Part shown: positions 3,976-27,143 of the stretch, piece after piece | How the letters are laid out: every line of letters begins with the position of its first letter | Numbering within the stretch: the stretch's first letter is position 1 | UHGV virus genome: UHGV-0040082 | Source: a virus | Reading direction: 5' to 3' (one strand) | DNA: 33,970 nt | Translations under genes and position numbers: made by a program | Notes under the pieces: model-generated | Told to the model about the DNA's origin: nothing | What the model saw: the letters and a program-made list of their open reading frames with translations, nothing else | Databases searched by the model: none

Positions 3976-4500
3976 TTATGTGCCATGATTAACACCATAA
4001 TATTTTTCTTCTAAAAACATCCTGTAAGCTACTGCATCACCGAAATCGTCAAAGTATTTATTGCTTTTTCTTTTTCCGTTCACAGCTATATACACCCTCC
4101 ACTGCTCCCTAGACTTGCACCACGATACACCACGAAAACCGCTAGTATTGTTTGACTTTATTTTCCCACTCCTTACGAAATCAGCACAGTTATCAACCTG
4201 ATAACCTATGTTAAGGTTTTCTATTCTATCATCACCCCTTACGTCGTTAATGTGCCTTATTACATGCTCATCAGGTATCGGGCCGTGATGCATTACCCAT
4301 ATAACTTGATGTCTATAGTAATTTCTCTTTTTATACGTGAATATGTAGTAACCGTTTTTATTCCTGGCGCCCACCGGACCCGGTTTTCTTCTTCCTCCAT
4401 TTTCACATATTAAAGTTTTCCAATATATGTTCCCTTCACTGTATATAAACAAGTCATTCCAGTTTATGCTATTGACCATGTCGTGATTTATTTGTGACAT
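3976..4500 (-). CDS. HNH homing endonuclease with C-terminal AP2-like DNA-binding domain
   Basis: HNH-type motif (HINDVRGDDRIENLN) followed by an AP2-like segment (GFRGVSW...W.V.I..NGK...); AT-rich relative to flanking tail genes; paralog of the ORF at 22125-22631. Confidence 0.8.
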   Translation of the reverse strand: MSQINHDMVNSINWNDLFIYSEGNIYWKTLICENGGRRKPGPVGARNKNGYYIFTYKKRNYYRHQVIWVMHHGPIPDEHVIRHINDVRGDDRIENLNIGYQVDNCADFVRSGKIKSNNTSGFRGVSWCKSREQWRVYIAVNGKRKSNKYFDDFGDAVAYRMFLEEKYYGVNHGT

Positions 4501-4742
4501 CCCTTAACCCCTGATAATTCATTAAATTTATGGTGCTCAACTATTGCCCACACTTTTAGATCCTTGCTGTACACTCGCCAATCAAGGTTGGCACGGAATG
4601 CGTAGCCGTATCCGTCTTTCAGTTTTTTGGGTGCTACGTCTTTCCTCAAGAACGCGTCCAGAAGTTCTTTTGCTTTTTTGACTACATGATCAGGTGCGTT
4701 TTTCTGTGCTTTCAGATTTTTACCAATCGCTACCAATTTCAT
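4488..4742 (-). CDS. Hypothetical protein (84 aa) upstream of and overlapping the HNH gene
   Basis: ORF overlaps the HNH start by 13 nt, suggesting an operon; no domain recognised. Confidence 0.4.
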   Translation of the reverse strand: MKLVAIGKNLKAQKNAPDHVVKKAKELLDAFLRKDVAPKKLKDGYGYAFRANLDWRVYSKDLKVWAIVEHHKFNELSGVKGCHK

Positions 4743-17500: not shown

Positions 17501-17608
17501 GAACTGGAAGAGGAGAACGCAAGCCTGAAAGCTAACATTGCCGCAATGGATGAGCGGATAGCAAAACTTGAAGCGCTTATCAGTCAGTTGACCGGAAGCG
17601 AAGAATAA
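14573..17608 (+). CDS. Side tail fiber with C-terminal intramolecular chaperone (peptidase S74-like) domain
   Basis: 1011 aa; Ala/Thr/Lys-rich heptad-like N-terminal repeats; C-terminus has SDQSLKDNI...GVIAQEV...P.A motif typical of self-cleaving fiber chaperone domains, then a coiled-coil tail; RBS GGAG. Confidence 0.8.
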   Translation: MIYTTGTVAINGNTVKGTGTNFSAPLSLIRVGCTLIAVGNPVQIFTITEIKSGTELLVTPAANPAIPAGTKFSILLSDSISVDGLAQDVAETLRYYQSKETEIASAVEWWNEIGGEGQLDQLLTNIRAETAKSTANAQKTETDKNAAEASKTAAAKSATAAKTSETNAKASETAAKTSETKAKTSEDRAQEYLNQMGRLTSPMVQCAWPVETSGNGAYVKIAKLSDPKSSDCHLTLMVTNGGGYGLSYGNIDFIEISARGLNDTGEVTSENISKFLSIRRLGSPNLPNNSQMCYGLVKGDGYIEVWCYQRSYIKNTKVAVLAQTGNTELYIPEGFVKQADAPAGYIESPAARIYDQVNKPSKADLGLSNAMLTGAFGLGGSGISTTGKMSDVEILKALRDKGGHFWRSDRPTGSTATIYSRGSGIFSRCGDTWSAINIDYGTGKVKVYAGNDGGLNSGNFSVNELYGTKNKPSKSDVGLDNVTNDAQVKKSGDTMTGDLSITKATPSIYIRSKSGTAHVWFQNEDQSERGVIWAPTNSEGLGEVHIRAKNTKGESTGELIVRHDGEIRVPSLTASKKIKGATADFTNTSETTTENTLKISGKQHTPLVLTRTGYSENLSIGFKVDNVVQKYLGINSGGDLCFGDYADHKTNSKVITQAVLDSGVTVGGQTTFSKLATFSKGMTGPIVPEGLDSRTIDLNDLIINGSDIGSVKYYQCTSSSGGANITNKPDGVGGNFLLRVESVRKVSDTDYISMQTLTSGDKERVFVRFNTNSKWTAWCEPVVSGWKQDVSVKTLTAAEDVILKNSDTGPRLILRNSNTSAQSWSVRVWGESGRESVFEVGNSNSYMFYAQEDAAGNKKFDFNGDISCKTLYQTSDQSLKDNIKVIGDATESIRKMNGYTYTFKDDGLPYAGVIAQEVMDALPEAIAFTTLCGKELQGPTTDGNILREEMKCLSVDYAAVTGLLVQVARETDNRVTELEEENASLKANIAAMDERIAKLEALISQLTGSEE

Positions 17609-17666: not shown

Positions 17667-17812
17667 ATGTACCAAATAGTGACCAAATACCCAAAACCAA
17701 AAACAAAAGCACTGTAACATACTGTTTTATAAATTATTATTCACAAAGCTAACCATTCCAAGCATACGGCAGATGGCAGGGCGACCAAGAAGAATTGTTG
17801 TCGTTTTATCCA

Positions 17813-18475
17813 TTATCTTTTCCCCGTGTATTCAACGTGTCCGATACATCCATCAATAATAGCTTGCGCCATATTGCGATAATCGCACGAAAAATCATTG
17901 TCACGGCTAAAGTCAATCTCGCTTGCCGCATCTTCACCCATTACCTTAGTGGCAAGTGCGAACGCTATTTCAGCGAGCGCCTTTTCTTTCGGGTCAATGT
18001 GAATGCGGTAAGAGTATTTCTTCCATGCTACAGTTGTTTCCGTTTCTGATACTAATTTACTGTGAGCGATAGCCCAATTATCACCGAGATATAAAAACTT
18101 AACGACATCGATAACCGTTCCGCTCGTAAGTCCTACACAATCAAGCCACACACCAACCGGAGGCTTTTCACATGCCAGCCATTCCGTTTTTTCAGGTTGT
18201 GTTTCGCAATCATGGTGCTCATCTTCGATTAATTCATCAATAATTTCACTTTCTTTATTCATACCGTCATCATCCTTATTCGATAAATTGGCGTATTTAT
18301 CAAATTTCCAGCTTGCAGCCATAACCGAATAAGTGCCGCCAGTGTCAGCGCGAACACCCAATAAATAGTATGATCCAAAATTATATTCCGTGTGGCATGT
18401 TGTTACCTCAAACGATGGGTAACACTCAGGGTTGGCGCGATGGCTAATCACGCCAATTGCTTTAAGTTTATTCAT
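17813..18475 (-). CDS. Hypothetical protein (220 aa), last gene of the minus-strand early operon
   Basis: Good RBS (GAGGA); no domain recognised; acidic central segment. Confidence 0.5.
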   Translation of the reverse strand: MNKLKAIGVISHRANPECYPSFEVTTCHTEYNFGSYYLLGVRADTGGTYSVMAASWKFDKYANLSNKDDDGMNKESEIIDELIEDEHHDCETQPEKTEWLACEKPPVGVWLDCVGLTSGTVIDVVKFLYLGDNWAIAHSKLVSETETTVAWKKYSYRIHIDPKEKALAEIAFALATKVMGEDAASEIDFSRDNDFSCDYRNMAQAIIDGCIGHVEYTGKR

Positions 18476-18489
18476 TTGCTTATCCTCAA

Positions 18490-18666
18490 TTACGCCACAG
18501 TTACATTGTCAACTTTGATAAAATATTCAGGATGGTTTTCTATTTCGTGCTGAAAGTGCGCGTGGCACAATCGCCAATCACGCGCCTGGTTGTGAAAATA
18601 GTAAACATATTCGCCATCAATCTTATATAAAATTCCTGTAGGTTTAGCCATGTAGTAACGAACCAT
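18490..18666 (-). CDS. Hypothetical small protein (about 58 aa)
   Basis: ATG overlaps the NinB stop (TAATG) suggesting translational coupling; start choice uncertain. Confidence 0.4.
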   Translation of the reverse strand: MVRYYMAKPTGILYKIDGEYVYYFHNQARDWRLCHAHFQHEIENHPEYFIKVDNVTVA

Positions 18667-19097
18667 TATCGCCCCCAGCGTTTTATAAATTCCTCGTTTA
18701 ACTTCGTATCGCCAGACCACTGAACACCATGTTCCGCGCCGAACGAGTAGATCAGTTCGATTAATTCGCTAAATTCTGCTTTACTCATCCGGCTGGTTGA
18801 CGTACCCAGCACAACAAAACCTGATTTATCCAGGTTAGGGACAACGCCATATTTCTTAAGCCCGGCAGTAAATACCGCTTTCCAGTCTTCCGACGACAGC
18901 TTTTTGCCGTACCAATTAACCTGATCGCTAACGTCTGTCAGCAGCGCCCAAAGCAACGCGTTTTGACTCAGCGAGCGGGTTTTCTCCTTGATGGTAATTA
19001 CCAGCGGGCTTTTGCTATCAGGCTGGATCTCCTTTATCTGTCTGATAGCGTTTTCTTTTACGGCGTCGTTAACTATTTCAAACCTTATTTGCCGCAT
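18666..19097 (-). CDS. ninB: NinB / Orf-family recombination protein
   Basis: 143 aa; matches recalled lambda NinB along its length (ERNRSLDQN..LWA.L.DVS.QV.W.G; VVPNL...GFVV.G.STSRM...EF.EL.ELI..FG.E.GV.WS). Confidence 0.8.
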   Translation of the reverse strand: MRQIRFEIVNDAVKENAIRQIKEIQPDSKSPLVITIKEKTRSLSQNALLWALLTDVSDQVNWYGKKLSSEDWKAVFTAGLKKYGVVPNLDKSGFVVLGTSTSRMSKAEFSELIELIYSFGAEHGVQWSGDTKLNEEFIKRWGR

Positions 19098-19106
19098 AAT
19101 ATCAAC

Positions 19107-19667
19107 TCAAAACAATTGCAATTGAAAACGTTCGCTGACTTCTTTCATTAACTGCTTAACATGTTTCTTATCACGCTTTCGCTGAGTTAACAGGCGGCTT
19201 CCAACCTTGCCGACCGTTTCGCTATCAGTAGCAAAACTGCTTACTGCATTCATTACCTGTTCACAGCTTGCGCCGCAACAAATAAGACCCTTAACGTGTT
19301 CAGCCATGTCATCATGTGTTTTAGGTTTTTCTCCGTAATAGCCATTATGACGAATAGATGGCAATACTTCCTCAAACACCCAATCCTGGAAGCGTTCGGC
19401 TGATTCAAGTTTTGAATGCATAATCAAGCGGAAAACATCCGGTTCGTAAATCAGGCCAACTCCTTTCGGCTTGAATCCGAATCCTAATTCTCGCGTTTTG
19501 CGAGAATCAAGTTTAATCAATGATTTACAGTGTTTTTTAATAGCATCATGCTCGTTCTTATAACCTAACGCGCGAGCAACATTAACAGCAACAAAAGCTG
19601 GCTTATCTGCATAAATAACCGTTTGCACTTGTTTATCATCAAACGAGAATTTAACAACCTTATTCAT
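19107..19667 (-). CDS. Bro-N domain protein (antirepressor-like)
   Basis: N-terminal Bro-N-like segment (AVARALGY..EHDAIKKHCKSLIKLDS ... SKLESAERFQDWVFEEVLPSIR); paralog of the ORF at 23783-24520. Confidence 0.7.
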   Translation of the reverse strand: MNKVVKFSFDDKQVQTVIYADKPAFVAVNVARALGYKNEHDAIKKHCKSLIKLDSRKTRELGFGFKPKGVGLIYEPDVFRLIMHSKLESAERFQDWVFEEVLPSIRHNGYYGEKPKTHDDMAEHVKGLICCGASCEQVMNAVSSFATDSETVGKVGSRLLTQRKRDKKHVKQLMKEVSERFQLQLF

Positions 19668-19857
19668 GTTTTACCCCTTTATAACTTTCGTTTCGCGCCT
19701 TCATAATCATTTGAAGGCTGATTAATTTAGAAGAAGTCATAAAAGCGCTTTTTAAGTACCTCATATCAACAACAACAGGATTATCAGGATCGCCGCCGCG
19801 CATGTATTCCGCAATTGTGCTTAAGTCTTCAACTGTCAATTCCAATTCACTGTTCAT
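19660..19857 (-). CDS. Hypothetical small protein (65 aa)
   Basis: Start placed at the internal ATG (MNSELEL) preceded by AAGGGGG. Confidence 0.3.
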   Translation of the reverse strand: MNSELELTVEDLSTIAEYMRGGDPDNPVVVDMRYLKSAFMTSSKLISLQMIMKARNESYKGVKHE

Positions 19858-19867
19858 GATCGCCCCC

Positions 19868-20074
19868 TTACACAATCCGCATTGTGTTTCGTAATTCTCC
19901 GCGCAACGCCCGTAATGCATCGCGCATCGGCACGAAAACCCGGTTAAATTTTACGTGTTTATATTTCCGCATTAGTGGCGGCGTATACACCATTGCGTCG
20001 TATACTTCCCACGGATAATAAACACGCGTATCGTCAACAAACGTTTCAACTGAATAAAAAATTACACGCCTCAT
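19868..20074 (-). CDS. Hypothetical small protein (68 aa)
   Basis: ORF with plausible RBS; no domain recognised. Confidence 0.3.
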   Translation of the reverse strand: MRRVIFYSVETFVDDTRVYYPWEVYDAMVYTPPLMRKYKHVKFNRVFVPMRDALRALRGELRNTMRIV

Positions 20075-20088
20075 AGTTCCAACCCCGT

Positions 20089-20598
20089 TTAACCGTTAAG
20101 TTTTTCAATCTCAAATACTGGTTTATCAGGCAGTAGGCCGTTATCTTTACGGTATTCGTTTAATAAGTTACTAAAATTAAATGCGACAACATTTGAATAA
20201 CCATAAAAACGCGCGTTTCTGAAAAAATATTTACCGTCAAACTTATTAACAGTTAGTAGGTTCTCACTTCCTAACATCCGCAATATTCTGCCGACCTTTC
20301 CTTTGTTTATATTAATATTCAATTCATTCTTAACATCTTCCGCTGAAAAATACCCGCTACTATTTGAAAACAAAGGGATTATATCCCTTATCGCCATTTC
20401 CCTTACTGACTTCAAGCAATATGATAATCTTTTACTATTTAGATCTACTTTTATAATAACGCCATCAGAAACCAAAGCATCCAAAGCGCAAATTATTTCA
20501 CCTTCCGGTCCAGGAATAGATTTAACTATCGTTCCCTCACCTGAAATAACAGCGTCATTTAAAAAATCAATTATTTGTTGCTGGTATGAAGTTTTCAT
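20089..20598 (-). CDS. Hypothetical protein in a strongly AT-rich island (about 169 aa)
   Basis: Start at MKTSYQQ with GAGG RBS; a sampled 60-nt stretch is ~25% GC versus ~50% in the neighbouring helicase gene. Confidence 0.5.
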   Translation of the reverse strand: MKTSYQQQIIDFLNDAVISGEGTIVKSIPGPEGEIICALDALVSDGVIIKVDLNSKRLSYCLKSVREMAIRDIIPLFSNSSGYFSAEDVKNELNININKGKVGRILRMLGSENLLTVNKFDGKYFFRNARFYGYSNVVAFNFSNLLNEYRKDNGLLPDKPVFEIEKLNG

Positions 20599-20674
20599 TT
20601 TTAGCCTCGTTTTAAACGCGAAAACAGCCACCAGAAAGCGGTAAACTTTCCGGCAAGCTGTTTGCTAATATTGA

Positions 20675-22090
20675 TTAAAAAGATGCGTTATTCTGATTGT
20701 TTCGTTGGTTAAATCGGCTTGCGCGATGATTCATAGACTGAATACATGCAGACGCTGCGCGGGCCTGGTCACAAGGGAGGATATTGCCGTTGTCATCAAA
20801 CCGCTGGTAAACAGTACCAGTTTTCCCGTGACGGTTTTTAGATACAATTATTTCCATGTATTCGCGTGCTACAGACTGCTCATCGTAATAACCATCGCGG
20901 TAAACCATGATGATCCTGTCAGCGTCTTGCTCAAGGTTCCCTGAATCTCGAAGATCTGAATTATTAGGGCGCTTGTTAGGTCGTTCCTCAACGCGGCGGG
21001 ATAACTGGGCCAGCGCCAACACTGGTACGCGCAATTCTTTCGCCATCATCTTCAACGACCATGACAATTGCCCTACAGCGAGATCGTGACGTTCGGCTTT
21101 AGCCAGCTTCATTAAACCGATGTAGTCAATCATTACCATGCCCAGGTTTGGGTGATCCTGCTTCATGCGTTCCGTTGTTGCGCGTATTTCCTCAACCGTT
21201 AACTGCGACGCGTCAACGATCCACACCTCAAGATTAGCAAGTGCGCTCATACCCTGGCCGACATGCGCCCAACCCTCATCATCAAGTTTTACCGGATTGC
21301 GCAGGCAGTCAGTTGATAAATTACCAGCGCCAGCAATGGCCCGTTCAGTCATCTGATCGAGTGACATTTCAAGCGTAAACAGCAAAACGCCTACCCGCTG
21401 ACCTTCGCCACCAGGGTAAGGGCGCTCGGCAGCCTCGCGAGCAATTGCAAGCGCCAACGCAGATTTACCAGACCCAGGACGTCCGGCGAGAAGTACCAAA
21501 TCAGTAGCGTTAATTCCGCCTAACATTTCGTCGAGTGGTTCTATACCTGTTTTGATGTTGTCAGAATTGACACCGCATTCCATGCGCTTGCTTAAAACGT
21601 CCGTATACTCCTGTACCGCATCACGCAACAGAACCGGAATGATCTTGTCTTTCGTTACCTTTAATTTTGAATACCGGGAATCAAAATCTTTCATCGTCTC
21701 TTTGACGACTTCAAGCGTCCCCGTTTCCAGCTTGTAGCGCATATCGTCGATGAGTTCCAACATCTGCCGCCGCTGGTGCTCTTCACGTAGTAGCTGTGCG
21801 TATCCCTTCAGGTTGGCAGCAGAAGGACACGATCGCGCCGTTTGCATTAGCGGTACAAAGTTTTCATTGCCAATCTCATCGCCAACTAATAACGCGTCGA
21901 TAAGATTCCTGTTTCTGGCTTGCGCCCGGATAACTTCAAACGCACGTTTATAAAGCGGGATCGTGAACACTTCAGGATCAAGTGTGGCGAGAACATCTTG
22001 CGCGTTAGGAGTAAGGCCACCTAACAGTAGCCCGCCGATAACTGACGCTTCACGTTCCTGCCGTAGTGAGTTTATTTGCTCAGTTACCAT
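20675..22090 (-). CDS. DnaB-family replicative DNA helicase
   Basis: 471 aa; N-terminal DnaB-like domain, Walker A GRPGSGKS, C-terminal RecA-like fold motifs. Confidence 0.85.
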   Translation of the reverse strand: MVTEQINSLRQEREASVIGGLLLGGLTPNAQDVLATLDPEVFTIPLYKRAFEVIRAQARNRNLIDALLVGDEIGNENFVPLMQTARSCPSAANLKGYAQLLREEHQRRQMLELIDDMRYKLETGTLEVVKETMKDFDSRYSKLKVTKDKIIPVLLRDAVQEYTDVLSKRMECGVNSDNIKTGIEPLDEMLGGINATDLVLLAGRPGSGKSALALAIAREAAERPYPGGEGQRVGVLLFTLEMSLDQMTERAIAGAGNLSTDCLRNPVKLDDEGWAHVGQGMSALANLEVWIVDASQLTVEEIRATTERMKQDHPNLGMVMIDYIGLMKLAKAERHDLAVGQLSWSLKMMAKELRVPVLALAQLSRRVEERPNKRPNNSDLRDSGNLEQDADRIIMVYRDGYYDEQSVAREYMEIIVSKNRHGKTGTVYQRFDDNGNILPCDQARAASACIQSMNHRASRFNQRNNQNNASF

Positions 22091-22124
22091 TATGTTATTG
22101 CCTCCGGTTTACAAAATGGAAAAT

Positions 22125-22631
22125 TCAGGGTAAAGAAATACCGTGATTGCTATGAAAGTTATACATTCTTTCAGCTTCTTTTCTTGCTTTTACGGCATCA
22201 TCAAATGAGTCACCGTAATAAACGTATATTGTTTTCTTTTTCCCATCAGACCCCCTTATACCTATTTGCGCGCGCCATTTATTAGTTTTCTTGTTCCATG
22301 TAACGCCAACGCATCCGCTGGTGTTACTTGATGGTATTGTTTTATTTCTGTTGTTCTCCCTCCTTGTAACCATCCTTAAGTTTTCGATTCTATCATCGCC
22401 AGGCACATGATTTATGTGATCTATTTCCATTCCATCAGGGATAGGGCCGTTAAACATTTCCCAAATAATGCGGTGACGCCATGTACAACACACACCATTA
22501 ACGCGGATAGTCCAATATCCGCTATGATGCCTACTTCCAGCAACGTCACCGGCTTTTGTTTTGTTATTTGCGCGGTTACAAGACCAATATAGAACACCGT
22601 CCCTATAGGTAAATAAATCATCCCACATCAT
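22125..22631 (-). CDS. HNH homing endonuclease with AP2-like domain (second copy)
   Basis: EIDHINHVPGDDRIENLR motif followed by GCVGVTW...W.A.I motif; start overlaps the stop of the upstream gene; paralog of the ORF at 3976-4500. Confidence 0.75.
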   Translation of the reverse strand: MMWDDLFTYRDGVLYWSCNRANNKTKAGDVAGSRHHSGYWTIRVNGVCCTWRHRIIWEMFNGPIPDGMEIDHINHVPGDDRIENLRMVTRRENNRNKTIPSSNTSGCVGVTWNKKTNKWRAQIGIRGSDGKKKTIYVYYGDSFDDAVKARKEAERMYNFHSNHGISLP

Positions 22632-23748
22632 GACACACCACCATTTCAGGCCTATATACAAAGCGACCAATTTCGCCATAATCAGGACTGTAAATGATAA
22701 CCGCCGCGCAACGTTGCGATCTCCATCCTCCATTAGTTGAATAAGCGTCTTTGCCCGCTAACGTGCCGTGGTGTTCAACTATGCCTATAGATGATTCTGT
22801 TACTGATTTATGGTGCAAATGTCCGACATGGACGTAAACATATTTCGACTTGCCGAAATCCTCGCGCCAGTCAGCTACGCAAGCAGCCAATAAATTTTCC
22901 GGCTTTTTAATAGTGTGCCCGTGGTGGTAAGCAAGAAATGTTTTACCGTACTGCGTGTGGTGGACGATAGCAGGTGACACATCAACCGTCACGCGCGGTT
23001 CATCTTCGTAAAAAGCCGCCAGCGCCGCACGTAGCCAAATCATGCCTGACTGATCGTGATTGCCTGACAACACCTGGATTTCAACATCCTTATGATTTAA
23101 CAACATTTTACCTACCGCCCGCCGGACAGACCGGATCGCCACATAAACAAGTTTTGCGTAGCGACTATCTTGATCAAGAATGTGCCCGCTTATTGGCGTC
23201 ACCGGGACCATACCGTCAGAATGAAGCAGATCGCCACCGAGGAGCAGTACGGCTTTTTCAGACATCGGAGCAGCGCCAACAGCGTAGTCAAAGAAGTCAT
23301 TCAACACGCGCTCAGCGATCCCAGTGTCGTAGCTCTCGCCGCATTCAGCTTTATGAGCAAGCGCCCCGATATGCAGATCAAACACCGGATAAAGGGCCAG
23401 GCTTTTTTGAAAATCAATTTCAGGCACTGGCACAGCCTCCGCGCGTGGTATTTCATCCGTGAAAGCGTCGCGGGCCGCTTCCATTAACTGTTCCATTTCG
23501 TCGCGGTCACGGGCTGTTTTAATCCAGCGCATGATCACATTGCCATCCTTATCGACGAGCAATGACTCAGCATTGACGCCAAAACCCGGTGCGCGACGCG
23601 TGGATATTAAACCGCGTTTCGCCAGTTTTGCGCCTAGCCGCTCGACGTTGCGTTTTGACATGCCATATTTTTCAGCGATCTGCTTGTACGTTAAACCGTT
23701 GTTATATTCAGCGATCAATTGCTCATCGCTGATTTTTCTTTGTGACAT
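22618..23748 (-). CDS. HTH domain fused to calcineurin-like metallophosphoesterase
   Basis: N-terminal HTH (LTYKQIAEKYGMSKRNVERL); then phosphoesterase motifs in order: DLHIG, GGDLLHSDG, GNHD, YHHGH, GHLHH. Confidence 0.7.
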   Translation of the reverse strand: MSQRKISDEQLIAEYNNGLTYKQIAEKYGMSKRNVERLGAKLAKRGLISTRRAPGFGVNAESLLVDKDGNVIMRWIKTARDRDEMEQLMEAARDAFTDEIPRAEAVPVPEIDFQKSLALYPVFDLHIGALAHKAECGESYDTGIAERVLNDFFDYAVGAAPMSEKAVLLLGGDLLHSDGMVPVTPISGHILDQDSRYAKLVYVAIRSVRRAVGKMLLNHKDVEIQVLSGNHDQSGMIWLRAALAAFYEDEPRVTVDVSPAIVHHTQYGKTFLAYHHGHTIKKPENLLAACVADWREDFGKSKYVYVHVGHLHHKSVTESSIGIVEHHGTLAGKDAYSTNGGWRSQRCAAVIIYSPDYGEIGRFVYRPEMVVCHDVG

Positions 23749-23782: not shown

Positions 23783-24520
23783 TTAGTTGCAAGTTAAAAG
23801 CTCAGTGATCCATACTTGTCCTTTAGCAGTGAATACAGCCTGCTCATATCCATCGTGAGTTACCCTCATTTCACCGTAGCCCTCATCAATAAACCACTGA
23901 CTGAATACACGGCGGCGACAGCGAAGATCATAAACACCAACCGCCGAAAGTTTTCTGTTTAATTTTACGGCTGACATTCCCAGCGGTTTAGCTACCTCTG
24001 AAGCCGTTCGGTGCATATCGTTTTTGACTATCGCGTCACATACAGCCGCTTTCGGAGCCAGCACTTTATTTTCAAGCGCAAGACGTTCATTTTCTTGCTT
24101 AACTAACAATTTTTGCTCGTATTCATTAGCCCACGCCCGCGCCGCTTCCGCAGGGTTAGAGAAGTCAGGCAAAGCAGGTTTGCAACCGTAACACCCATTT
24201 TCACGCAAAGCCGGAAGAACCTCCTCGCACACCCAATCCTGGAAGCGCTCGGCTGATTCTAATTTTGATCTCATAACAAGACGGTATATATCTGCCTCTC
24301 GAATTATAATTATGCCTTTTGGTCTGAACCCAAAACCTAATTCCGTTGTTTTAACGGAATCAAGTTTAATCAATGACTTACAATGTTTTTTAATGGCCTG
24401 ATGCTCGTCGTTGTACCCCAGCGCACGGGCCACATCAACCGCAACAAAAGCAGGTTTACCGTCATAAATTACAGCAGTGATTTTATTGTCATCAAAATTA
24501 AAACACATCAACTCAGACAT
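23783..24520 (-). CDS. Bro-N / KilA-C-type antirepressor-like protein
   Basis: Start at MSELM with GGAGA RBS; N-terminal Bro-N segment near-identical in places to the ORF at 19107-19667; longer C-terminal domain. Confidence 0.7.
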   Translation of the reverse strand: MSELMCFNFDDNKITAVIYDGKPAFVAVDVARALGYNDEHQAIKKHCKSLIKLDSVKTTELGFGFRPKGIIIIREADIYRLVMRSKLESAERFQDWVCEEVLPALRENGCYGCKPALPDFSNPAEAARAWANEYEQKLLVKQENERLALENKVLAPKAAVCDAIVKNDMHRTASEVAKPLGMSAVKLNRKLSAVGVYDLRCRRRVFSQWFIDEGYGEMRVTHDGYEQAVFTAKGQVWITELLTCN

Positions 24521-24652
24521 TGTAATTTCTCCGTAAAACGCTCTACAACGCAAAAATCCCACCGCGTAACCCGTTTGCACAGGTTGCAGTGTCTTATTGC
24601 GCCAGAGGCGCTATCAGGTGGCTAATTTTCGATTTACAGACTGGTATGTAGG

Positions 24653-24768: not shown

Positions 24769-25407
24769 CTAAAACGAATTATTAGAAACGAATTTTCTGT
24801 ATGGCTTAGGTAACGAAGGAGTGTTGCCGCCAAATAACAACCTTATCGCATTAACAGAAAACTCAACATACATAAACGGTTCACCATCAGCATGATAGCC
24901 AACCTGTTGGCGAGCAAGCCCGCGAAGCGCCATAGACGGCGTAACAATCCAGCCATTATCAACCTTTTGAACCATGCCCAGCTTTGCAGCAGCCTTATAA
25001 ACTTCACCAGACTTTCCAGGCAAGATTTTCCCTGGAGTAAGGAATACACCCTCAAGCATGTTGATCAGGCAATCATTTTCCTTGCGTAACTGCGCTGCCT
25101 CTTTCTCTCTTTCGATGAAGTAGTCACGAACCGCGCGCCCCTTAGGTGTGTGCTGGATCATCGCAATGTGTTTTGCTGCCTCAACAGTCAGAAAATATTC
25201 AGATGCTGGGCGGCCTCCATCCAGGTTATGAACATTTTTGTTCAAAACCTCAAAATCCAAAGACTTACGCAACCCGCACGCCTTTATCTGACGCTTTATC
25301 CACATGTGATAAGGAGTTTTAACACCCATTGCCTCATGTAACTGGCGACCGTCAACAGCCTCGCGCGTAACGCCGTCCATATCCTTAACAACAATATCGA
25401 ACTTCAT
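24769..25407 (-). CDS. AntA-domain antirepressor-like protein
   Basis: 212 aa; N-terminal region resembles the AntA/AntB family; RBS GAGAGGA. Confidence 0.5.
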   Translation of the reverse strand: MKFDIVVKDMDGVTREAVDGRQLHEAMGVKTPYHMWIKRQIKACGLRKSLDFEVLNKNVHNLDGGRPASEYFLTVEAAKHIAMIQHTPKGRAVRDYFIEREKEAAQLRKENDCLINMLEGVFLTPGKILPGKSGEVYKAAAKLGMVQKVDNGWIVTPSMALRGLARQQVGYHADGEPFMYVEFSVNAIRLLFGGNTPSLPKPYRKFVSNNSF

Positions 25408-25540: not shown

Positions 25541-26587
25541 TCAAAGAGCGCCACATCGTGTATCACGTAGCGTTTTTGGTTTAAGTAGAAAATCCAGTGT
25601 CGCAGTAAAGCCATTGCCGAAGTAAAAATCTGAAGCCGTGTTTTTGAACGTTTCAAAGTAGGCGACAAAGCCGTTGATGCTTTTGTCTTTCAGGTAGTCA
25701 GTGAACGCATAAATCTTGCGTTCAAGATCCCTATCCAGTTCGGCAGGTGGCAACAGGCCATCAAACGTGCTGTTAAATGCCTCCACTACGTCGGCAGCGT
25801 TTGCAGTGGCTGACAGTTTGCGCCATTTTTCAGCATCAGCCAGATACCCATCAAATTTAGTTACCCGGCAAATGTTTATAGGCTTAGGTGTTCCACCACG
25901 GCTACGCCATTGCGTTAAAGCCCACTCAATCACTAATGTGATCTCATCCTCCGTATACGCTTTACGTGTTTTTGTTTCTGTCAGTAGTTCGATGAATGGC
26001 TTCGCATCACGACATTTGCATCCTGCCTTGTCGTTGTAGAAGGCCAGGCAACGCAACGCCGCTTCGTTTACGCCATCATGATTGACATGTTTTTCTTCTG
26101 GGGGGATATAAGGGGGTATATTTTTAATGTTCTCTTTACTGGTTATATATGACTGGTTAGGGTGACTCTGTGTCACTACCCCCGGTGACTCTGTGTCACT
26201 ACCCTGGTGACTCTGTGTCACTACCCCCGGTGACTCTGTGTCACTACCCTGGTGACTCTGTGTCACTACCCCCGGTGTCACAGTGACACTACCATGCAAT
26301 GACGGAAGGACTATTACATAGAAATTACTAGTTTGCTCTTTTCCTCCGATTAAGTATCTTGGTTGTTTAATCAACAACCCTTTTTCACAAAGTGAGTCTA
26401 CAGCCCTCATAGCTGTTCTTTTGCTGATCTCACACTCCTTTGCTATGTGATGGTAAGAAGGGTAACACTCGCCGTTATCATTAGCGTTATCAGCTAACTT
26501 CAACAGCACTAGTTTGTGCATTGGGTCGCCGACCTCAGTATGGAAGACCTCTACCATTAGCCGCATACTCATAAGCATTAACCTCAT
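25541..26587 (-). CDS. Replication initiator (lambda O-like) containing the origin iterons
   Basis: N-terminal winged-helix/HTH segment, internal peptide repeats GVVTQSHQGSDTESP x3 encoded by DNA iterons, gene sits upstream of the DnaB helicase. Exact start uncertain. Confidence 0.65.
   Translation of the reverse strand: MRLMLMSMRLMVEVFHTEVGDPMHKLVLLKLADNANDNGECYPSYHHIAKECEISKRTAMRAVDSLCEKGLLIKQPRYLIGGKEQTSNFYVIVLPSLHGSVTVTPGVVTQSHQGSDTESPGVVTQSHQGSDTESPGVVTQSHPNQSYITSKENIKNIPPYIPPEEKHVNHDGVNEAALRCLAFYNDKAGCKCRDAKPFIELLTETKTRKAYTEDEITLVIEWALTQWRSRGGTPKPINICRVTKFDGYLADAEKWRKLSATANAADVVEAFNSTFDGLLPPAELDRDLERKIYAFTDYLKDKSINGFVAYFETFKNTASDFYFGNGFTATLDFLLKPKTLRDTRCGAL
26161..26293. repeat. Origin-like iteron array: five 22/23-bp direct repeats plus one palindromic variant
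   Basis: ggtgactctgtgtcactaccc(cc/t) repeated five times (26161-26273), then ggtgtcacagtgacactacc; each unit has internal dyad symmetry GTGAC..GTCAC; AT-rich tract at 26100-26160 on the downstream side. Confidence 0.7.
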
Positions 26588-26593
26588 GACGAA

Positions 26594-26839
26594 CTAAAAC
26601 ATTAACTGATAAACACAGAAGAAACCTGGTAGCTGGCTGATTAGGCCGCTTCTTTTCAGTTGATGAAGTGCAGAGATAGTATCGCGTAACGGAATTTCGC
26701 ACATTTCAGCGATTTCTTCCGGCGTTACTTCGCTTTTGCCGTTGCATCCGGCCTTTGTTGCCAGTGCAATTAAGATGAGTTTTTGCGCCGGATCATTGTT
26801 ATTCAGGCGAATATCAAAAGCCTTGCGCACGTAATACAT
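26594..26839 (-). CDS. Small HTH protein at the Cro position
   Basis: 81 aa; first gene of the minus operon, divergent from the repressor; RBS GGAGA; its HTH resembles the N-terminal HTH of the adjacent O-like protein rather than a classical Cro. Confidence 0.5.
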   Translation of the reverse strand: MYYVRKAFDIRLNNNDPAQKLILIALATKAGCNGKSEVTPEEIAEMCEIPLRDTISALHQLKRSGLISQLPGFFCVYQLMF

Positions 26840-27143
26840 ATTCTATCTCCTATGATTAGAGTGAACGCGCGGGCGGGCATCCCATTAGCATTAGATAGCA
26901 GTGACTGACCGCTCAACAGATCCCGCCGTTGCGTGATATTTGTTTTTCGCTTCGCAGCGACACCGGATTTTTAAAGAGCTTAAGGCGTCGGCCTTTTTGT
27001 GCTTTCCCTTATCTTTTTCCTTGCATCATTGCAAGTATGGCTTTACCTTGTCAGCAAGTTTACAGAATGGCGCTAACGGGTCAAGACTTAAAAAACACGT
27101 TTTGTGACTTGCATCAAAATTTTTTAGGTTATAGGGTAGCGAC
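26840..27143. promoter_or_regulatory. Divergent control region between Cro-position gene and repressor gene
   Basis: 304-bp intergenic region between divergent starts; repeated element CTTGCATCA at 27019-27027 and 27109-27117, the first within inverted repeat TTGCA-N4-TGCAA; weak TTGCAT/TATAGG promoter-like pair just before the repressor ATG. Confidence 0.45.

What the first reader, a model, noticed from the sequence alone, without database searches (positions are those of the whole stretch)
20089..20598. Strongly AT-rich unknown gene downstream of the helicase
This ORF (about 169 aa) sits in sequence that looks ~25-35% GC by eye, well below the neighbouring replication genes. It has a proper RBS but no family I recognise. 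Compositional islands in the nin region often carry accessory functions such as abortive infection or anti-defence.
Basis: seen in the sequence. Interest (0 to 1): 0.5.

Follow-up and report, generated by a model that had tools for sequence, protein, structure and literature searches.

The report
AT-rich allele of helicase-adjacent winged-helix gene
The AT-rich ORF is a real gene, a swapped-in divergent version of the double winged-helix protein that mEp021-like coliphages and the one distant relative traced encode right after their DnaB helicase, so it is an ordinary mosaic phage gene of unknown function rather than inserted defence cargo.

Summary
The ORF lies on the minus strand at 20089-20598 (169 aa, GAGG ribosome-binding site). 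Its GC is 33.1% against 45.6% for the window, the lowest of any 510-nt stretch.

The window is an mEp021-like ("mEpimmI") coliphage. This slot, directly downstream of the DnaB-type helicase and upstream of NinB, is filled in every relative examined (mEp021 gp08, PHROG 1687). The window carries a divergent "B" allele, about 35% identical to the common "A" allele.

The AT-rich stretch (20161-20598) is a sharply bounded cassette running from the start codon to codon 146. It sits between a conserved intergenic region and a conserved tail-coding segment. It assorts independently of every other variable module in the early region.

The gene is under purifying selection (dN/dS 0.03-0.13). AlphaFold predicts two tandem winged-helix domains (acidic WH1, basic WH2) and a disordered but conserved C-terminal peptide. 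There is no defence-system hit, no promoter of its own and no iterons; the origin iterons lie in the O-like gene.

λ Ren, which holds the equivalent slot, matches PHROG 1687, but direct homology is weak. My best guess is a replication-module nucleic-acid-binding adaptor. The mechanism is unproven. Interest is low to moderate.

The parts
20089..20598 (-). The ORF: 169-aa tandem winged-helix protein, the 'B' allele of the mEp021 gp08 / PHROG 1687 slot gene
   Evidence: Searches give the ORF. One search finds homologues at 91-99% identity in E. coli prophages. One search gives dN/dS of 0.03-0.13. One search gives the AF2 model (pLDDT 80, pTM 0.69).
20161..20598 (-). AT-rich allelic cassette (codons 1-146; GC 32.6%), replaced relative to mEp021-type phages
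   Evidence: The DNA alignment shows identity to mEp021 and MagusPhagus collapsing exactly at the start codon and resuming at AACGAATACCGTAAA (codon 147). In one search this is the only segment of 17.6-32.6 kb that separates the 9 B/B' loci from the 6 A loci.
20413..20598 (-). Winged-helix domain 1 (residues 1-62); net charge -3, third-helix net charge -3
   Evidence: AF2 secondary structure with pLDDT 84-96; charges.
20215..20412 (-). Winged-helix domain 2 (residues 63-128); basic recognition helix KGKVGRILRMLGS (+4); R104 invariant across the family
   Evidence: This domain gives the best hhalign match to the lambda Ren winged helix (E 4e-4).
20092..20214 (-). C-terminal helix (residues 137-152, low confidence) and disordered tail (153-169) carrying the conserved motif Y-R-K-x3-L-x-P-x4-F-E-x2-K-L-N
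   Evidence: pLDDT is below 50 for residues 157-169. Invariant columns are listed. Tail dN/dS is 0.04-0.07 with dS 0.4-0.8. The motif is kept in distant homologues P0027 and P0030.
20071..20091 (-). Nonsense codon not seen in any homologue compared (TAA at 20089-20091, where 175-aa relatives have a sense codon, e.g. GAA), removing the last 6 residues (ETGLEL). The ancestral TGA at 20071-20073 overlapped the ATG of the next gene.
   Evidence: relatives are 175 aa, with an ATGA stop/start overlap.
20599..20674 (-). Conserved helicase-ORF intergenic region, with the shared ribosome-binding site (GAGG, 20605-20608) and a terminator-like hairpin (20628-20656). It forms the 5' recombination anchor of the cassette.
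   Evidence: Strongly conserved (only scattered substitutions) across all four aligned loci, which carry alleles A and B. Terminator-like site. RNA fold of -28.3 kcal/mol, z = -3.0.
20675..22090 (-). DnaB-type replicative helicase, the invariant upstream neighbour
   Evidence: Pfam DnaB_C E 1e-75. Adjacency is kept in all 17 related loci examined; in the Enterobacter lambdoid phage one small gene intervenes.
19868..20074 (-). 68-aa downstream gene, normally stop/start-overlapped with the ORF
   Evidence: Its own sequence variants do not co-vary with the ORF allele.

Best explanation
SHOWN. The ORF is a genuine protein-coding gene under purifying selection. It is a divergent, AT-rich allele ('B') of the gene that follows the DnaB-type helicase in mEp021-like (mEpimmI) coliphages: mEp021 gp08, PHROG 1687.

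The AT-rich segment is a precisely bounded cassette covering codons 1-146. It was exchanged by recombination between two conserved anchors: the helicase-ORF intergenic region, and the segment that encodes the C-terminal tail. It assorts independently of all other variable modules in the early region.

The protein is predicted to have two tandem winged-helix domains, an acidic WH1 and a WH2 with a basic recognition helix. These are followed by a short helix and a disordered C-terminal peptide that is conserved across the family.

INFERRED. The protein is a non-enzymatic accessory factor of the replication/recombination operon, in the same slot that Ren holds in lambda. WH2 binds nucleic acid, DNA or possibly RNA. 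The conserved tail is a short linear motif that docks onto a partner common to all backbones. The adjacent phage DnaB helicase is the prime candidate. The layout would then parallel small helicase-associated proteins that have a folded N-domain and an unfolded helicase-binding tail.

The low GC reflects descent of the cassette from an old, low-GC allelic lineage of unknown donor, not a separate accessory function.
For: Reality and selection:
- dN/dS is 0.03 (B vs B) and 0.10-0.13 (B vs B', with dS above 2). For the tail it is 0.04-0.07.

Allelic status:
- Full-length alignment to the A alleles at 32-36% identity, with the last ~23 residues almost identical (one substitution in the window's copy).
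- Sharp DNA junctions at the start codon and at codon 147.
- Allele counts in 5,426 complete E. coli genomes: A 20, B 7, B' 3.

Slot conservation:
- Directly downstream of DnaB in mEp021, MagusPhagus, ten E. coli prophages, four metagenome contigs and a distant lineage (P0027, whose DnaB is 55% identical).
- One gene removed from the helicase in a true lambdoid Enterobacter phage.

Independence:
- In a 15-kb scan of 15 loci, no segment other than the cassette co-segregates with allele type.
- The N-terminal type of the O-like protein and the variants of the downstream gene do not co-vary with it.

Fold:
- AF2 pLDDT 80; two winged-helix domains; tail pLDDT below 50.
- Charge asymmetry between WH1 and WH2.

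Tail motif:
- Kept at the protein level in P0027 and P0030 despite 20-24% overall identity.

Ren-slot link:
- Lambda Ren matches PHROG 1687 at E 1.5e-10. Family members match PHROG 1687 full-length at E 1e-17 to 0.013.
- A preprint describes ren as 'likely involved in DNA replication' (10.1101/2021.04.19.439022).
Against: - No experiment or complex prediction links the tail to DnaB. The tail is absent from the Enterobacter-phage relative, which still sits next to a helicase.
- P22-type O-like plus DnaB modules are generally thought to need no extra loader (from memory).
- A winged helix is a generic fold, so DNA or RNA binding is not demonstrated. WH1 is acidic.
- Synteny is shared by descent within one phage supergroup, so adjacency to DnaB is weak evidence of functional coupling.
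- The profile-profile match to Ren is weak (E 2e-3, probability 14%).
- No low-GC donor was found, so the origin of the composition is unexplained.
Confidence: 0.4

Rival explanations
1. A sequence-specific transcriptional regulator, as automated annotation suggests ('MarR family', 'Lrp/AsnC family'). The winged-helix domains would bind an operator and control phage or host genes, and alleles A, B and B' would have different DNA specificities.
For: - PHROG 1687 is labelled as a MarR-family regulator. PGAP labels some A alleles Lrp/AsnC.
- There are sub-threshold Pfam winged-helix hits: HTH_20, MarR_2, FUR, TrmB.
- The WH2 recognition helix is basic.
- Substitutions between B and B' cluster in the two third helices, as expected for changes in specificity.
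Against: - The architecture is not MarR-like. It has two tandem winged helices and lacks the flanking dimerisation helices, and every Pfam or NCBIfam hit is below the curated cut-off.
- There is no RAM domain, so it is not Lrp/AsnC.
- No co-varying DNA site was found. Both flanks are conserved between alleles. There are no convincing repeats or palindromes in or near the cassette. No other early-region segment is linked to allele type.
- The scan found no promoter-like site upstream that it could autoregulate.
Confidence: 0.25
2. A Ren-like anti-exclusion or counter-defence factor. Like lambda Ren against RexAB, it would neutralise a host or prophage abortive-infection system, and the divergent alleles would reflect an arms race with the target.
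For: - It occupies the same slot as lambda ren: after the replication genes and before ninB.
- Lambda Ren matches PHROG 1687 at E 1.5e-10.
- Family members give sub-threshold hits to PHROG 142 'Ren-like exclusion protein' at E 4e-4.
- Rex proteins are reported to interact with O and Ren in a two-hybrid assay (10.1101/2021.04.19.439022).
- Deep allelic divergence on otherwise similar backbones fits diversifying pressure.
Against: - Direct profile-profile similarity to Ren is weak (E 2e-3, probability 14%; WH1 alone E 0.036).
- Ren's conserved C-terminal STNxIFxEC motif is not matched, and Ren has a single winged helix.
- dN/dS is low throughout, with no sign of positive selection at this resolution.
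- The molecular role of Ren is itself unknown, so the analogy predicts little.
- PADLOC gives no hits, although PADLOC does not cover anti-defence genes.
Confidence: 0.15
3. One reading: a horizontally acquired accessory 'moron' encoding abortive infection or defence, unrelated to the replication module.
For: It is the strongest GC outlier in the window. The family is tiny and restricted, with 7 representatives among 1.84 billion proteins. It has no known function.
Against: - It is homologous over its full length to the gene that fills the same slot in all relatives examined, so this is replacement and not insertion.
- It has no promoter or terminator of its own.
- It shares its ribosome-binding site and upstream region with the A allele.
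- There is no PADLOC hit.
- The predicted fold has no enzymatic or toxin-like domain.
Confidence: 0.05
4. Not a gene: an AT-rich DNA element (an origin unwinding region or an H-NS-bound silencer) that happens to carry a spurious ORF.
For: AT-rich tracts accompany origins, and the ORF lies inside the replication operon.
Against: - There is a strong excess of synonymous change (8 synonymous to 1 nonsynonymous between B alleles; dN/dS about 0.1 against B').
- The fold prediction is confident.
- The origin-type iterons (6 x 23 bp) lie elsewhere, at 26161-26293 inside the O-like gene.
- There are no iterons in the cassette, and Rfam gives no match.
Confidence: 0.02

Closest known systems
mEp021 gp08 (AXN54127, 'hypothetical protein') and MagusPhagus CDS0010; PHROG 1687 ('MarR family transcription regulator')
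   Same: Same slot directly downstream of the DnaB helicase. Homologous over the full length. The upstream intergenic region and ribosome-binding site are conserved (a few substitutions), and the C-terminal ~23 residues are almost identical. The whole family matches PHROG 1687.
   Different: Only 32-36% identity across residues 1-146. GC is 33% against 43-46%. The protein is 10 residues shorter, with several indels in the winged-helix domains. The window's copy also lost the last 6 residues to a nonsense codon.
Bacteriophage lambda Ren (PHROG 142)
   Same: Holds the gene slot between the replication genes and ninB. It is a small protein with a winged-helix-type N-terminal domain that matches the first 65 positions of PHROG 1687 at E 1.5e-10. 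It is non-essential in lambda (PMC10695390) and is thought to be linked to replication.
   Different: Ren has one winged helix, not two. It follows lambda P (which loads the host DnaB) rather than a phage DnaB. Its C-terminal motif is not shared. Direct profile-profile similarity is weak (E 2e-3).
SelB C-terminal tandem winged-helix module (PDB 1WSU, 2V9V, 1LVA)
   Different: 10-16% identity and no sequence-level relation. SelB is a translation factor. No SECIS-like target is known here.
MarR / ArsR / PadR single winged-helix repressors
   Different: Those are one-domain homodimers with dedicated dimerisation helices. This protein is a tandem repeat, and no Pfam model passes its cut-off.
Small helicase-associated proteins with a folded N-domain and an unfolded helicase-binding tail (SPP1 G39P, bacterial DciA) - recalled from memory, analogy only
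   Same: Small size, a gene adjacent to a DnaB-type helicase gene, and a folded N-terminal part followed by a conserved, disordered C-terminal tail.
   Different: No sequence or fold similarity was detected, and no interaction with the helicase has been tested.

Membership tests
mEp021 gp08 / PHROG 1687 slot-gene family | Significant full-length sequence homology to family members | tested here: met
   phmmer hits to A alleles at E 1e-11. The profile search recovers A, B and C lineages. The alignment shows 20 invariant columns. PHROG 1687 is matched full-length by the window protein (E 0.013), P0018 (1.8e-4), P0020 (2.7e-10) and P0027 (1e-17).
mEp021 gp08 / PHROG 1687 slot-gene family | Conserved position: downstream of the DnaB-type helicase and upstream of NinB | tested here: met
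Lambda Ren family (PHROG 142) | Significant match to the Ren profile, including the conserved C-terminal STNxIFxEC segment | tested here: inconclusive
   Hits to PHROG 142 are only sub-threshold (E 4e-4, no domain passing). hhalign of the family against a Ren alignment gives E 2e-3, probability 14%, covering the winged helix only. Ren does match PHROG 1687 at E 1.5e-10. The Ren AF2 model was too poor (pLDDT 62) for a structural comparison.
Lambda Ren family (PHROG 142) | Confers resistance to Rex exclusion | not testable with these tools
   Requires plating on RexAB+ lysogens.
MarR family transcriptional regulators | Pfam MarR or MarR_2 match above the gathering threshold | tested here: not met
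   There is no MarR hit for the window protein. The best in the family is P0027 against MarR_2, 19.9 bits against a cut-off of 27.
MarR family transcriptional regulators | A single winged helix flanked by N- and C-terminal dimerisation helices | tested here: not met
   The AF2 model shows two tandem winged helices and no such helices.
Lrp/AsnC family (PGAP label on some A alleles) | N-terminal HTH plus a C-terminal RAM/ACT-like ligand domain | tested here: not met
   No AsnC_trans_reg or HTH_AsnC hit. The second half of the protein is another winged helix.
Iteron-binding replication initiators (plasmid Rep WH1-WH2, lambda O-like) | Cognate iterons in or next to the gene; homology to Rep or O families | tested here: not met
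Phage 'moron' / accessory island | Inserted between conserved genes (presence/absence polymorphism), with its own promoter and terminator | tested here: not met
   The slot is always occupied by a homologue. The scan found no promoter-like site upstream of the start and no terminator-like site downstream of the gene.
Known anti-phage defence systems (PADLOC-DB) | Match to any defence-protein model | tested here: not met
   0 families at E <= 10.
Helicase loaders / helicase-binding adaptors | Physical interaction with the replicative helicase | not testable with these tools
   Complex prediction with chimeric or multi-chain input is not accepted by the structure tool. Only adjacency and the conserved disordered tail are available.

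The most novel reading that the evidence does not exclude
The slot gene would be a two-part adaptor. An invariant C-terminal peptide would tether it to the phage replisome (DnaB). A rapidly exchangeable tandem winged-helix 'head' would be the part seen, or targeted, by host or prophage exclusion systems such as RexAB-like Abi. The deeply diverged A, B and B' cassettes would then be maintained by balancing selection as escape or counter-defence alleles. This would make it a functional two-domain elaboration of lambda Ren and would give Ren-slot proteins a mechanism.
Probability: 0.12. Interest if true: 0.55.

Novelty: new member of a known kind. Interest (0 to 1): 0.25.

Why it matters
As it stands, this is an ordinary example of phage mosaicism, with three features worth recording.

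1. The recombination junctions are unusually clean. They fall at the start codon and at codon 147. This splits the protein into an exchangeable double winged-helix head and a fixed C-terminal peptide.
2. The tail is disordered yet under strong purifying selection, which marks it as a candidate docking motif.
3. There is a possible evolutionary link to lambda Ren, a gene whose molecular function is, as far as I could establish, still unresolved.

mEpimmI phages are reported to be common in the human gut (PMC11893012). Assigning a role to a conserved gene next to their helicase would help annotate the whole group. The finding does not reveal a new kind of system.

Tried and rejected
- **Origin or iteron-binding initiator.** I searched 19900-20800 for repeats and found only short two-copy matches. 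The real iterons are in the O-like gene. Rejected.
- **Specificity coupling with the O-like initiator.** The window (allele B) shares its O-like N-terminus with mEp021 (allele A), while another B prophage has a different one. Rejected.
- **Linkage scan for a co-varying partner or site.** I scanned 17.6-32.6 kb in 15 loci. Nothing except the cassette tracks the allele. Late genes were not scanned.
- **Embedded cis-element from synonymous-site conservation, B vs B'.** I found only a 25-nt identical run at the WH1/WH2 junction, not clearly beyond chance.
- **Low-GC donor or relatives in other species.** The exhaustive profile search gave 7 representatives, all in the same phage context or fragments. 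The genome-contig scan found none. The P0027 search added one protein.
- **Solved-structure sequence search.** Only noise, E >= 0.29.
- **Rfam on 19000-22500.** Nothing.
- **Structural test of the Ren link.** The Ren model was poor (pLDDT 62) and its BFVD search was uninformative.
- **afdb50 fold library.** Unavailable.
- **Thomason & Court 2022 ren paper (PMC9529316).** Not held in the library.
- **C-terminal tail motif.** By eye it matches no canonical beta-clamp (QL[SD]LF) or SSB-tail motif. No assignment was made.

Full report
**1. The observation.**
The ORF is real and sits where stated, on the minus strand. The ATG is at 20598 and the TAA at 20089-20091, giving 169 aa. The longer 180-aa GTG-start reading in the mechanical ORF list is not used by any homologue; all begin MKTSYQ. 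A GAGG ribosome-binding site lies 6 nt upstream of the ATG.

GC is 33.1% against 45.6% for the window. That is z = -3.4 on the distribution of 510-nt windows. The global minimum of that distribution (20095-20604) coincides with the ORF, and only 0.04% of windows are as low. GC3 is 0.28, against 0.44 +/- 0.05 for 20 other ORFs. The compositional claim is therefore confirmed and is not a chance fluctuation.

**2. What the window is.**
Megablast of 19600-21200 hits only the six mEp phages (mEp021, 010, 013, 044, 515, 554) and phage MagusPhagus, at 87-90% identity. The match covers the flanks but not the body of the ORF. These are the 'mEpimmI' non-lambdoid, Nus-dependent temperate coliphages (PMC11893012).

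The minus-strand operon reads as follows:
- small wHTH gene (26594-26839)
- O-like initiator (25541-26587)
- AntA (24769-25407)
- Bro/KilAC (23783-24580)
- exonuclease-like gene (22618-23748)
- HNH-AP2 (22125-22733 as listed; the annotated mEp021 counterpart is 167 aa, so the true start is probably a downstream ATG)
- DnaB helicase (20675-22090)
- the ORF
- 68-aa and 86-aa genes
- Bro-N
- NinB (18666-19097)
- 220-aa gene

**3. It is an allele, not an insertion.**
In mEp021 the same slot holds gp08 (185 aa, 'hypothetical'). In MagusPhagus it holds a 182-aa 'MarR family' protein. The window protein aligns with both over its whole length at 32-36% identity, and the last ~23 residues (LNEYRKNNGLLPDKPVFEIEKLN) are almost identical, with one substitution in the window's copy.

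The DNA alignment of four loci shows very sharp junctions. The 76-nt helicase-ORF intergenic region, including the ribosome-binding site, is strongly conserved up to the start codon. Identity then collapses and resumes at AACGAATACCGTAAA (codon 147). The AT-rich cassette is thus 20161-20598 (GC 32.6%).

I call the mEp021 type 'A', the window type 'B', a 67%-identical relative 'B-prime' (P0018), and a distant lineage 'C' (P0027, P0030). Megablast finds A in 20, B in 7 and B' in 3 of the 5,426 complete E. coli genomes, always chromosomal; every locus I opened was a prophage.

B-carrying prophages sit on varied backbones. They use two different integrases and attachment sites, carry KilAC, BRO or Rha antirepressors, and have different O-like modules.

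**4. It is a real gene.**
Codon-by-codon comparison gives 8 synonymous to 1 nonsynonymous differences between two B alleles (dN/dS 0.03). Between B and B' dN/dS is 0.10-0.13, with synonymous sites saturated (dS above 2). B' is also AT-rich (35%). The low GC is therefore an old property of this allelic lineage, not a recent artefact.

The tail segment has dS 0.4-0.8 and dN/dS 0.04-0.07. The C lineage, only 20-24% identical overall, still keeps Y-R-K-x3-L-x-P-x4-F-E-x2-K-L-N. Tail conservation is therefore selected at the protein level and is not only a by-product of recombination.

The window's copy has a nonsense codon (TAA where the 175-aa relatives have a sense codon, e.g. GAA) that none of the homologues compared shares. 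It removes the final six residues and undoes the ATGA stop/start overlap with the next gene. MagusPhagus also ends early, so these residues are probably dispensable.

**5. Family and fold.**
No Pfam or NCBIfam model passes its cut-off. The sub-threshold hits are all winged-helix types. PADLOC gives nothing.

An exhaustive HMM search of 1.84 billion representative proteins returns only seven hits. Apart from fragments and one long multi-repeat protein (P0029) that I did not examine, they are the A, B and C lineages.

AlphaFold2 on a 19-sequence alignment gives mean pLDDT 80 and pTM 0.69. It predicts:
- two tandem winged-helix domains (residues 1-62 and 63-128, pLDDT about 84-96)
- a lower-confidence helix (137-152)
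- a disordered tail (157-169, pLDDT below 50)

WH1 is acidic (net -3, third helix -3). The WH2 recognition helix is basic (+4) and contains the family-invariant R104.

**6. Tests of specific ideas.**
- *Origin-binding initiator.* Rejected. There are no iterons in or near the ORF. Six 23-bp iterons sit inside the O-like gene at 26161-26293, which matches O-like and DnaD-like initiator PHROGs.
- *Specificity coupling to the initiator.* Rejected. The window (B) shares its O-like N-terminal type with mEp021 (A), while another B prophage has a different type.
- *Any linked segment.* BLAST profiles of 15 loci against window 17.6-32.6 kb show that only bins 20200-20600 separate B and B' from A. The other variable cassettes (Bro-N, HNH, Bro/KilAC, AntA, O-like N-terminus) assort independently.
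- *Moron.* Rejected. The scan found no promoter-like site upstream of the start (the one minus-strand match near it, at 20598-20570, lies inside the ORF) and no terminator-like site downstream of the gene (two weaker stem-loop matches fall inside the ORF). The most convincing terminator-like hairpin (20628-20656; RNA fold z = -3.0) lies upstream and is conserved in all four loci aligned, which carry alleles A and B.
- *Embedded cis-element.* Comparison of B and B' shows only a 25-nt identical run at the domain junction, not convincing.

**7. The Ren lead.**
Alleles A and C give sub-threshold hits to PHROG 142, 'Ren-like exclusion protein' (E 4e-4). Lambda ren lies directly after O-P and before ninB, the equivalent slot. 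Lambda Ren itself matches the first 65 positions of PHROG 1687 at E 1.5e-10.

Direct profile-profile comparison of the family with a Ren alignment is weak. It gives E 2e-3 (probability 14%) for WH2 against Ren residues 12-58, and 0.036 for WH1. Ren's conserved C-terminal motif is not matched. An AF2 model of Ren was too poor to help.

A true lambdoid Enterobacter phage (N, cI, cro, cII, O-like, helicase, nin genes, Q) also has a 150-aa tandem winged-helix relative one gene downstream of its helicase, but without the tail. Its helicase is only 33% identical to the window's.

So the family looks like a 'Ren-slot' protein of helicase-type replication modules. Membership of the Ren family proper remains inconclusive.

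On the literature: ren is non-essential in lambda (PMC10695390). It is described as 'likely involved in DNA replication', with Rex proteins reported to interact with O and Ren in a two-hybrid assay (bioRxiv 10.1101/2021.04.19.439022). That ren protects lambda from Rex exclusion is from my memory (Toothman & Herskowitz 1980).

**8. Most likely mechanism.**
Shown:
- It is a selected, syntenic, helicase-adjacent gene.
- It has an exchangeable double winged-helix head and a fixed, disordered, conserved tail.
- It has no enzymatic domain.
- No linked site or partner variation was found in the early region.

Inferred: because A and B heads work on the same backbones, contact with the common phage machinery is probably made by the invariant tail. 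The adjacent DnaB is the most economical partner. The basic WH2 probably supplies nucleic-acid binding. Small helicase-associated proteins with a folded N-domain and an unfolded helicase-binding tail (SPP1 G39P, DciA; from memory) are a functional precedent, not relatives.

I put about 0.9 on the descriptive part and about 0.3-0.4 on the adaptor mechanism. Rivals:
- site-specific regulator: 0.25
- Ren-like anti-exclusion factor: 0.15
- accessory or defence moron: 0.05
- non-coding element: 0.02

**9. Novelty and verdict.**
The B allele already exists in public databases as 'hypothetical protein', and the family is catalogued (PHROG 1687). This is a new, strongly diverged member of a known but uncharacterised kind.

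The compositional island is explained by allelic cassette exchange, although the low-GC donor is unknown. Interest is low to moderate. It rests on the clean head/tail modularity, the selected disordered tail and the possible link to lambda Ren.

Noticed in passing
window 26161-26293 (inside the O-like gene 25541-26587, minus strand); also 26102-26120: Six tandem 23-bp iterons (GGTGACTCTGTGTCACTACCCCC, each with an internal palindrome; also read as 3 x 45 bp). They encode the repeated peptide PGVVTQSHQGSDTES in the O-like initiator. This is very probably the phage origin, embedded in the initiator gene as in lambda. A short GGGGATATAA x2 repeat lies next to it.
   Followed up: partly
window ~17711-17787 (between the tail-fibre gene end at 17608 and the 220-aa gene 17813-18475): The integrase and the small HTH/excisionase-like gene (about 1.5 kb), present at this junction in the mEp021 and prophage loci inspected, are missing. 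Tail-fibre 3' sequence abuts the distal end of the early-left operon. The window looks like an int/xis-deleted (non-lysogenising) or otherwise rearranged genome.
   Followed up: partly
window 20628-20656 (minus strand), within the intergenic region 20599-20674: A conserved 12-bp-stem hairpin followed by CUGUUUUCGC lies between the helicase stop and the ORF's ribosome-binding site (RNA fold z = -3.0). It is retained in all four aligned loci (alleles A and B). It could be a leaky terminator read through by the Nus-dependent antitermination of these phages, or a regulatory RNA or DNA site.
   Followed up: partly
window 26000-26850 (O-like N-terminal region plus the 81-aa wHTH gene 26594-26839): This is a second allelic cassette. 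The window's version is shared with L015 (a B prophage), mEp021 and L017 (A), and is replaced in the other loci. It presumably carries the iteron specificity and assorts independently of the finding's cassette.
   Followed up: partly
window 22125-22733 (minus strand): An HNH_3 + AP2 homing-endonuclease-like gene lies between the exonuclease-like gene and DnaB. Among 15 compared loci it is present only in the window and mEp021, so it is probably a mobile insertion. The listed ORF start overlaps the upstream gene by about 116 nt. The true start is probably a downstream ATG (about 167 aa, as annotated in mEp021).
   Followed up: partly
window 3976-4500 and 4488-4742 (minus strand, inside the plus-strand tail gene cluster): The region with the second-lowest GC in the window (37.5%). 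It holds a second HNH_3+AP2 endonuclease-like ORF and an adjacent ParE-like toxin-domain ORF, both antisense to the surrounding structural genes. This is a better candidate for inserted accessory cargo than the reported ORF.
   Followed up: partly
window 24769-25407 (minus strand) and 19107-19667 (minus strand): The AntA-type antirepressor gene has no counterpart in any of the 15 compared loci. The Bro-N gene at 19107-19667 occupies a slot that holds a DNA methyltransferase in mEp021 and is shared in part only with L013 and L016. Counting the Bro-N/KilAC gene at 23783-24580 as well, that makes three antirepressor-like genes in one early operon.
   Followed up: no
L011 4983-5435 (Enterobacter phage vB_Ecl_MII_001, PQ039552.1): A 150-aa tandem winged-helix relative of this family is annotated as 'arginine/ornithine ABC transporter', an evident misannotation. 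It sits in the Ren-equivalent region of a lambdoid genome, one gene after the helicase.
   Followed up: partly
window 20413-20424 region (codons 57-64, RLSYCLKS): There is a 25-nt run of perfect identity between alleles B and B' at the WH1/WH2 junction, although synonymous sites are saturated elsewhere. It could be a small recombination tract or a constrained element. Significance is marginal.
   Followed up: no
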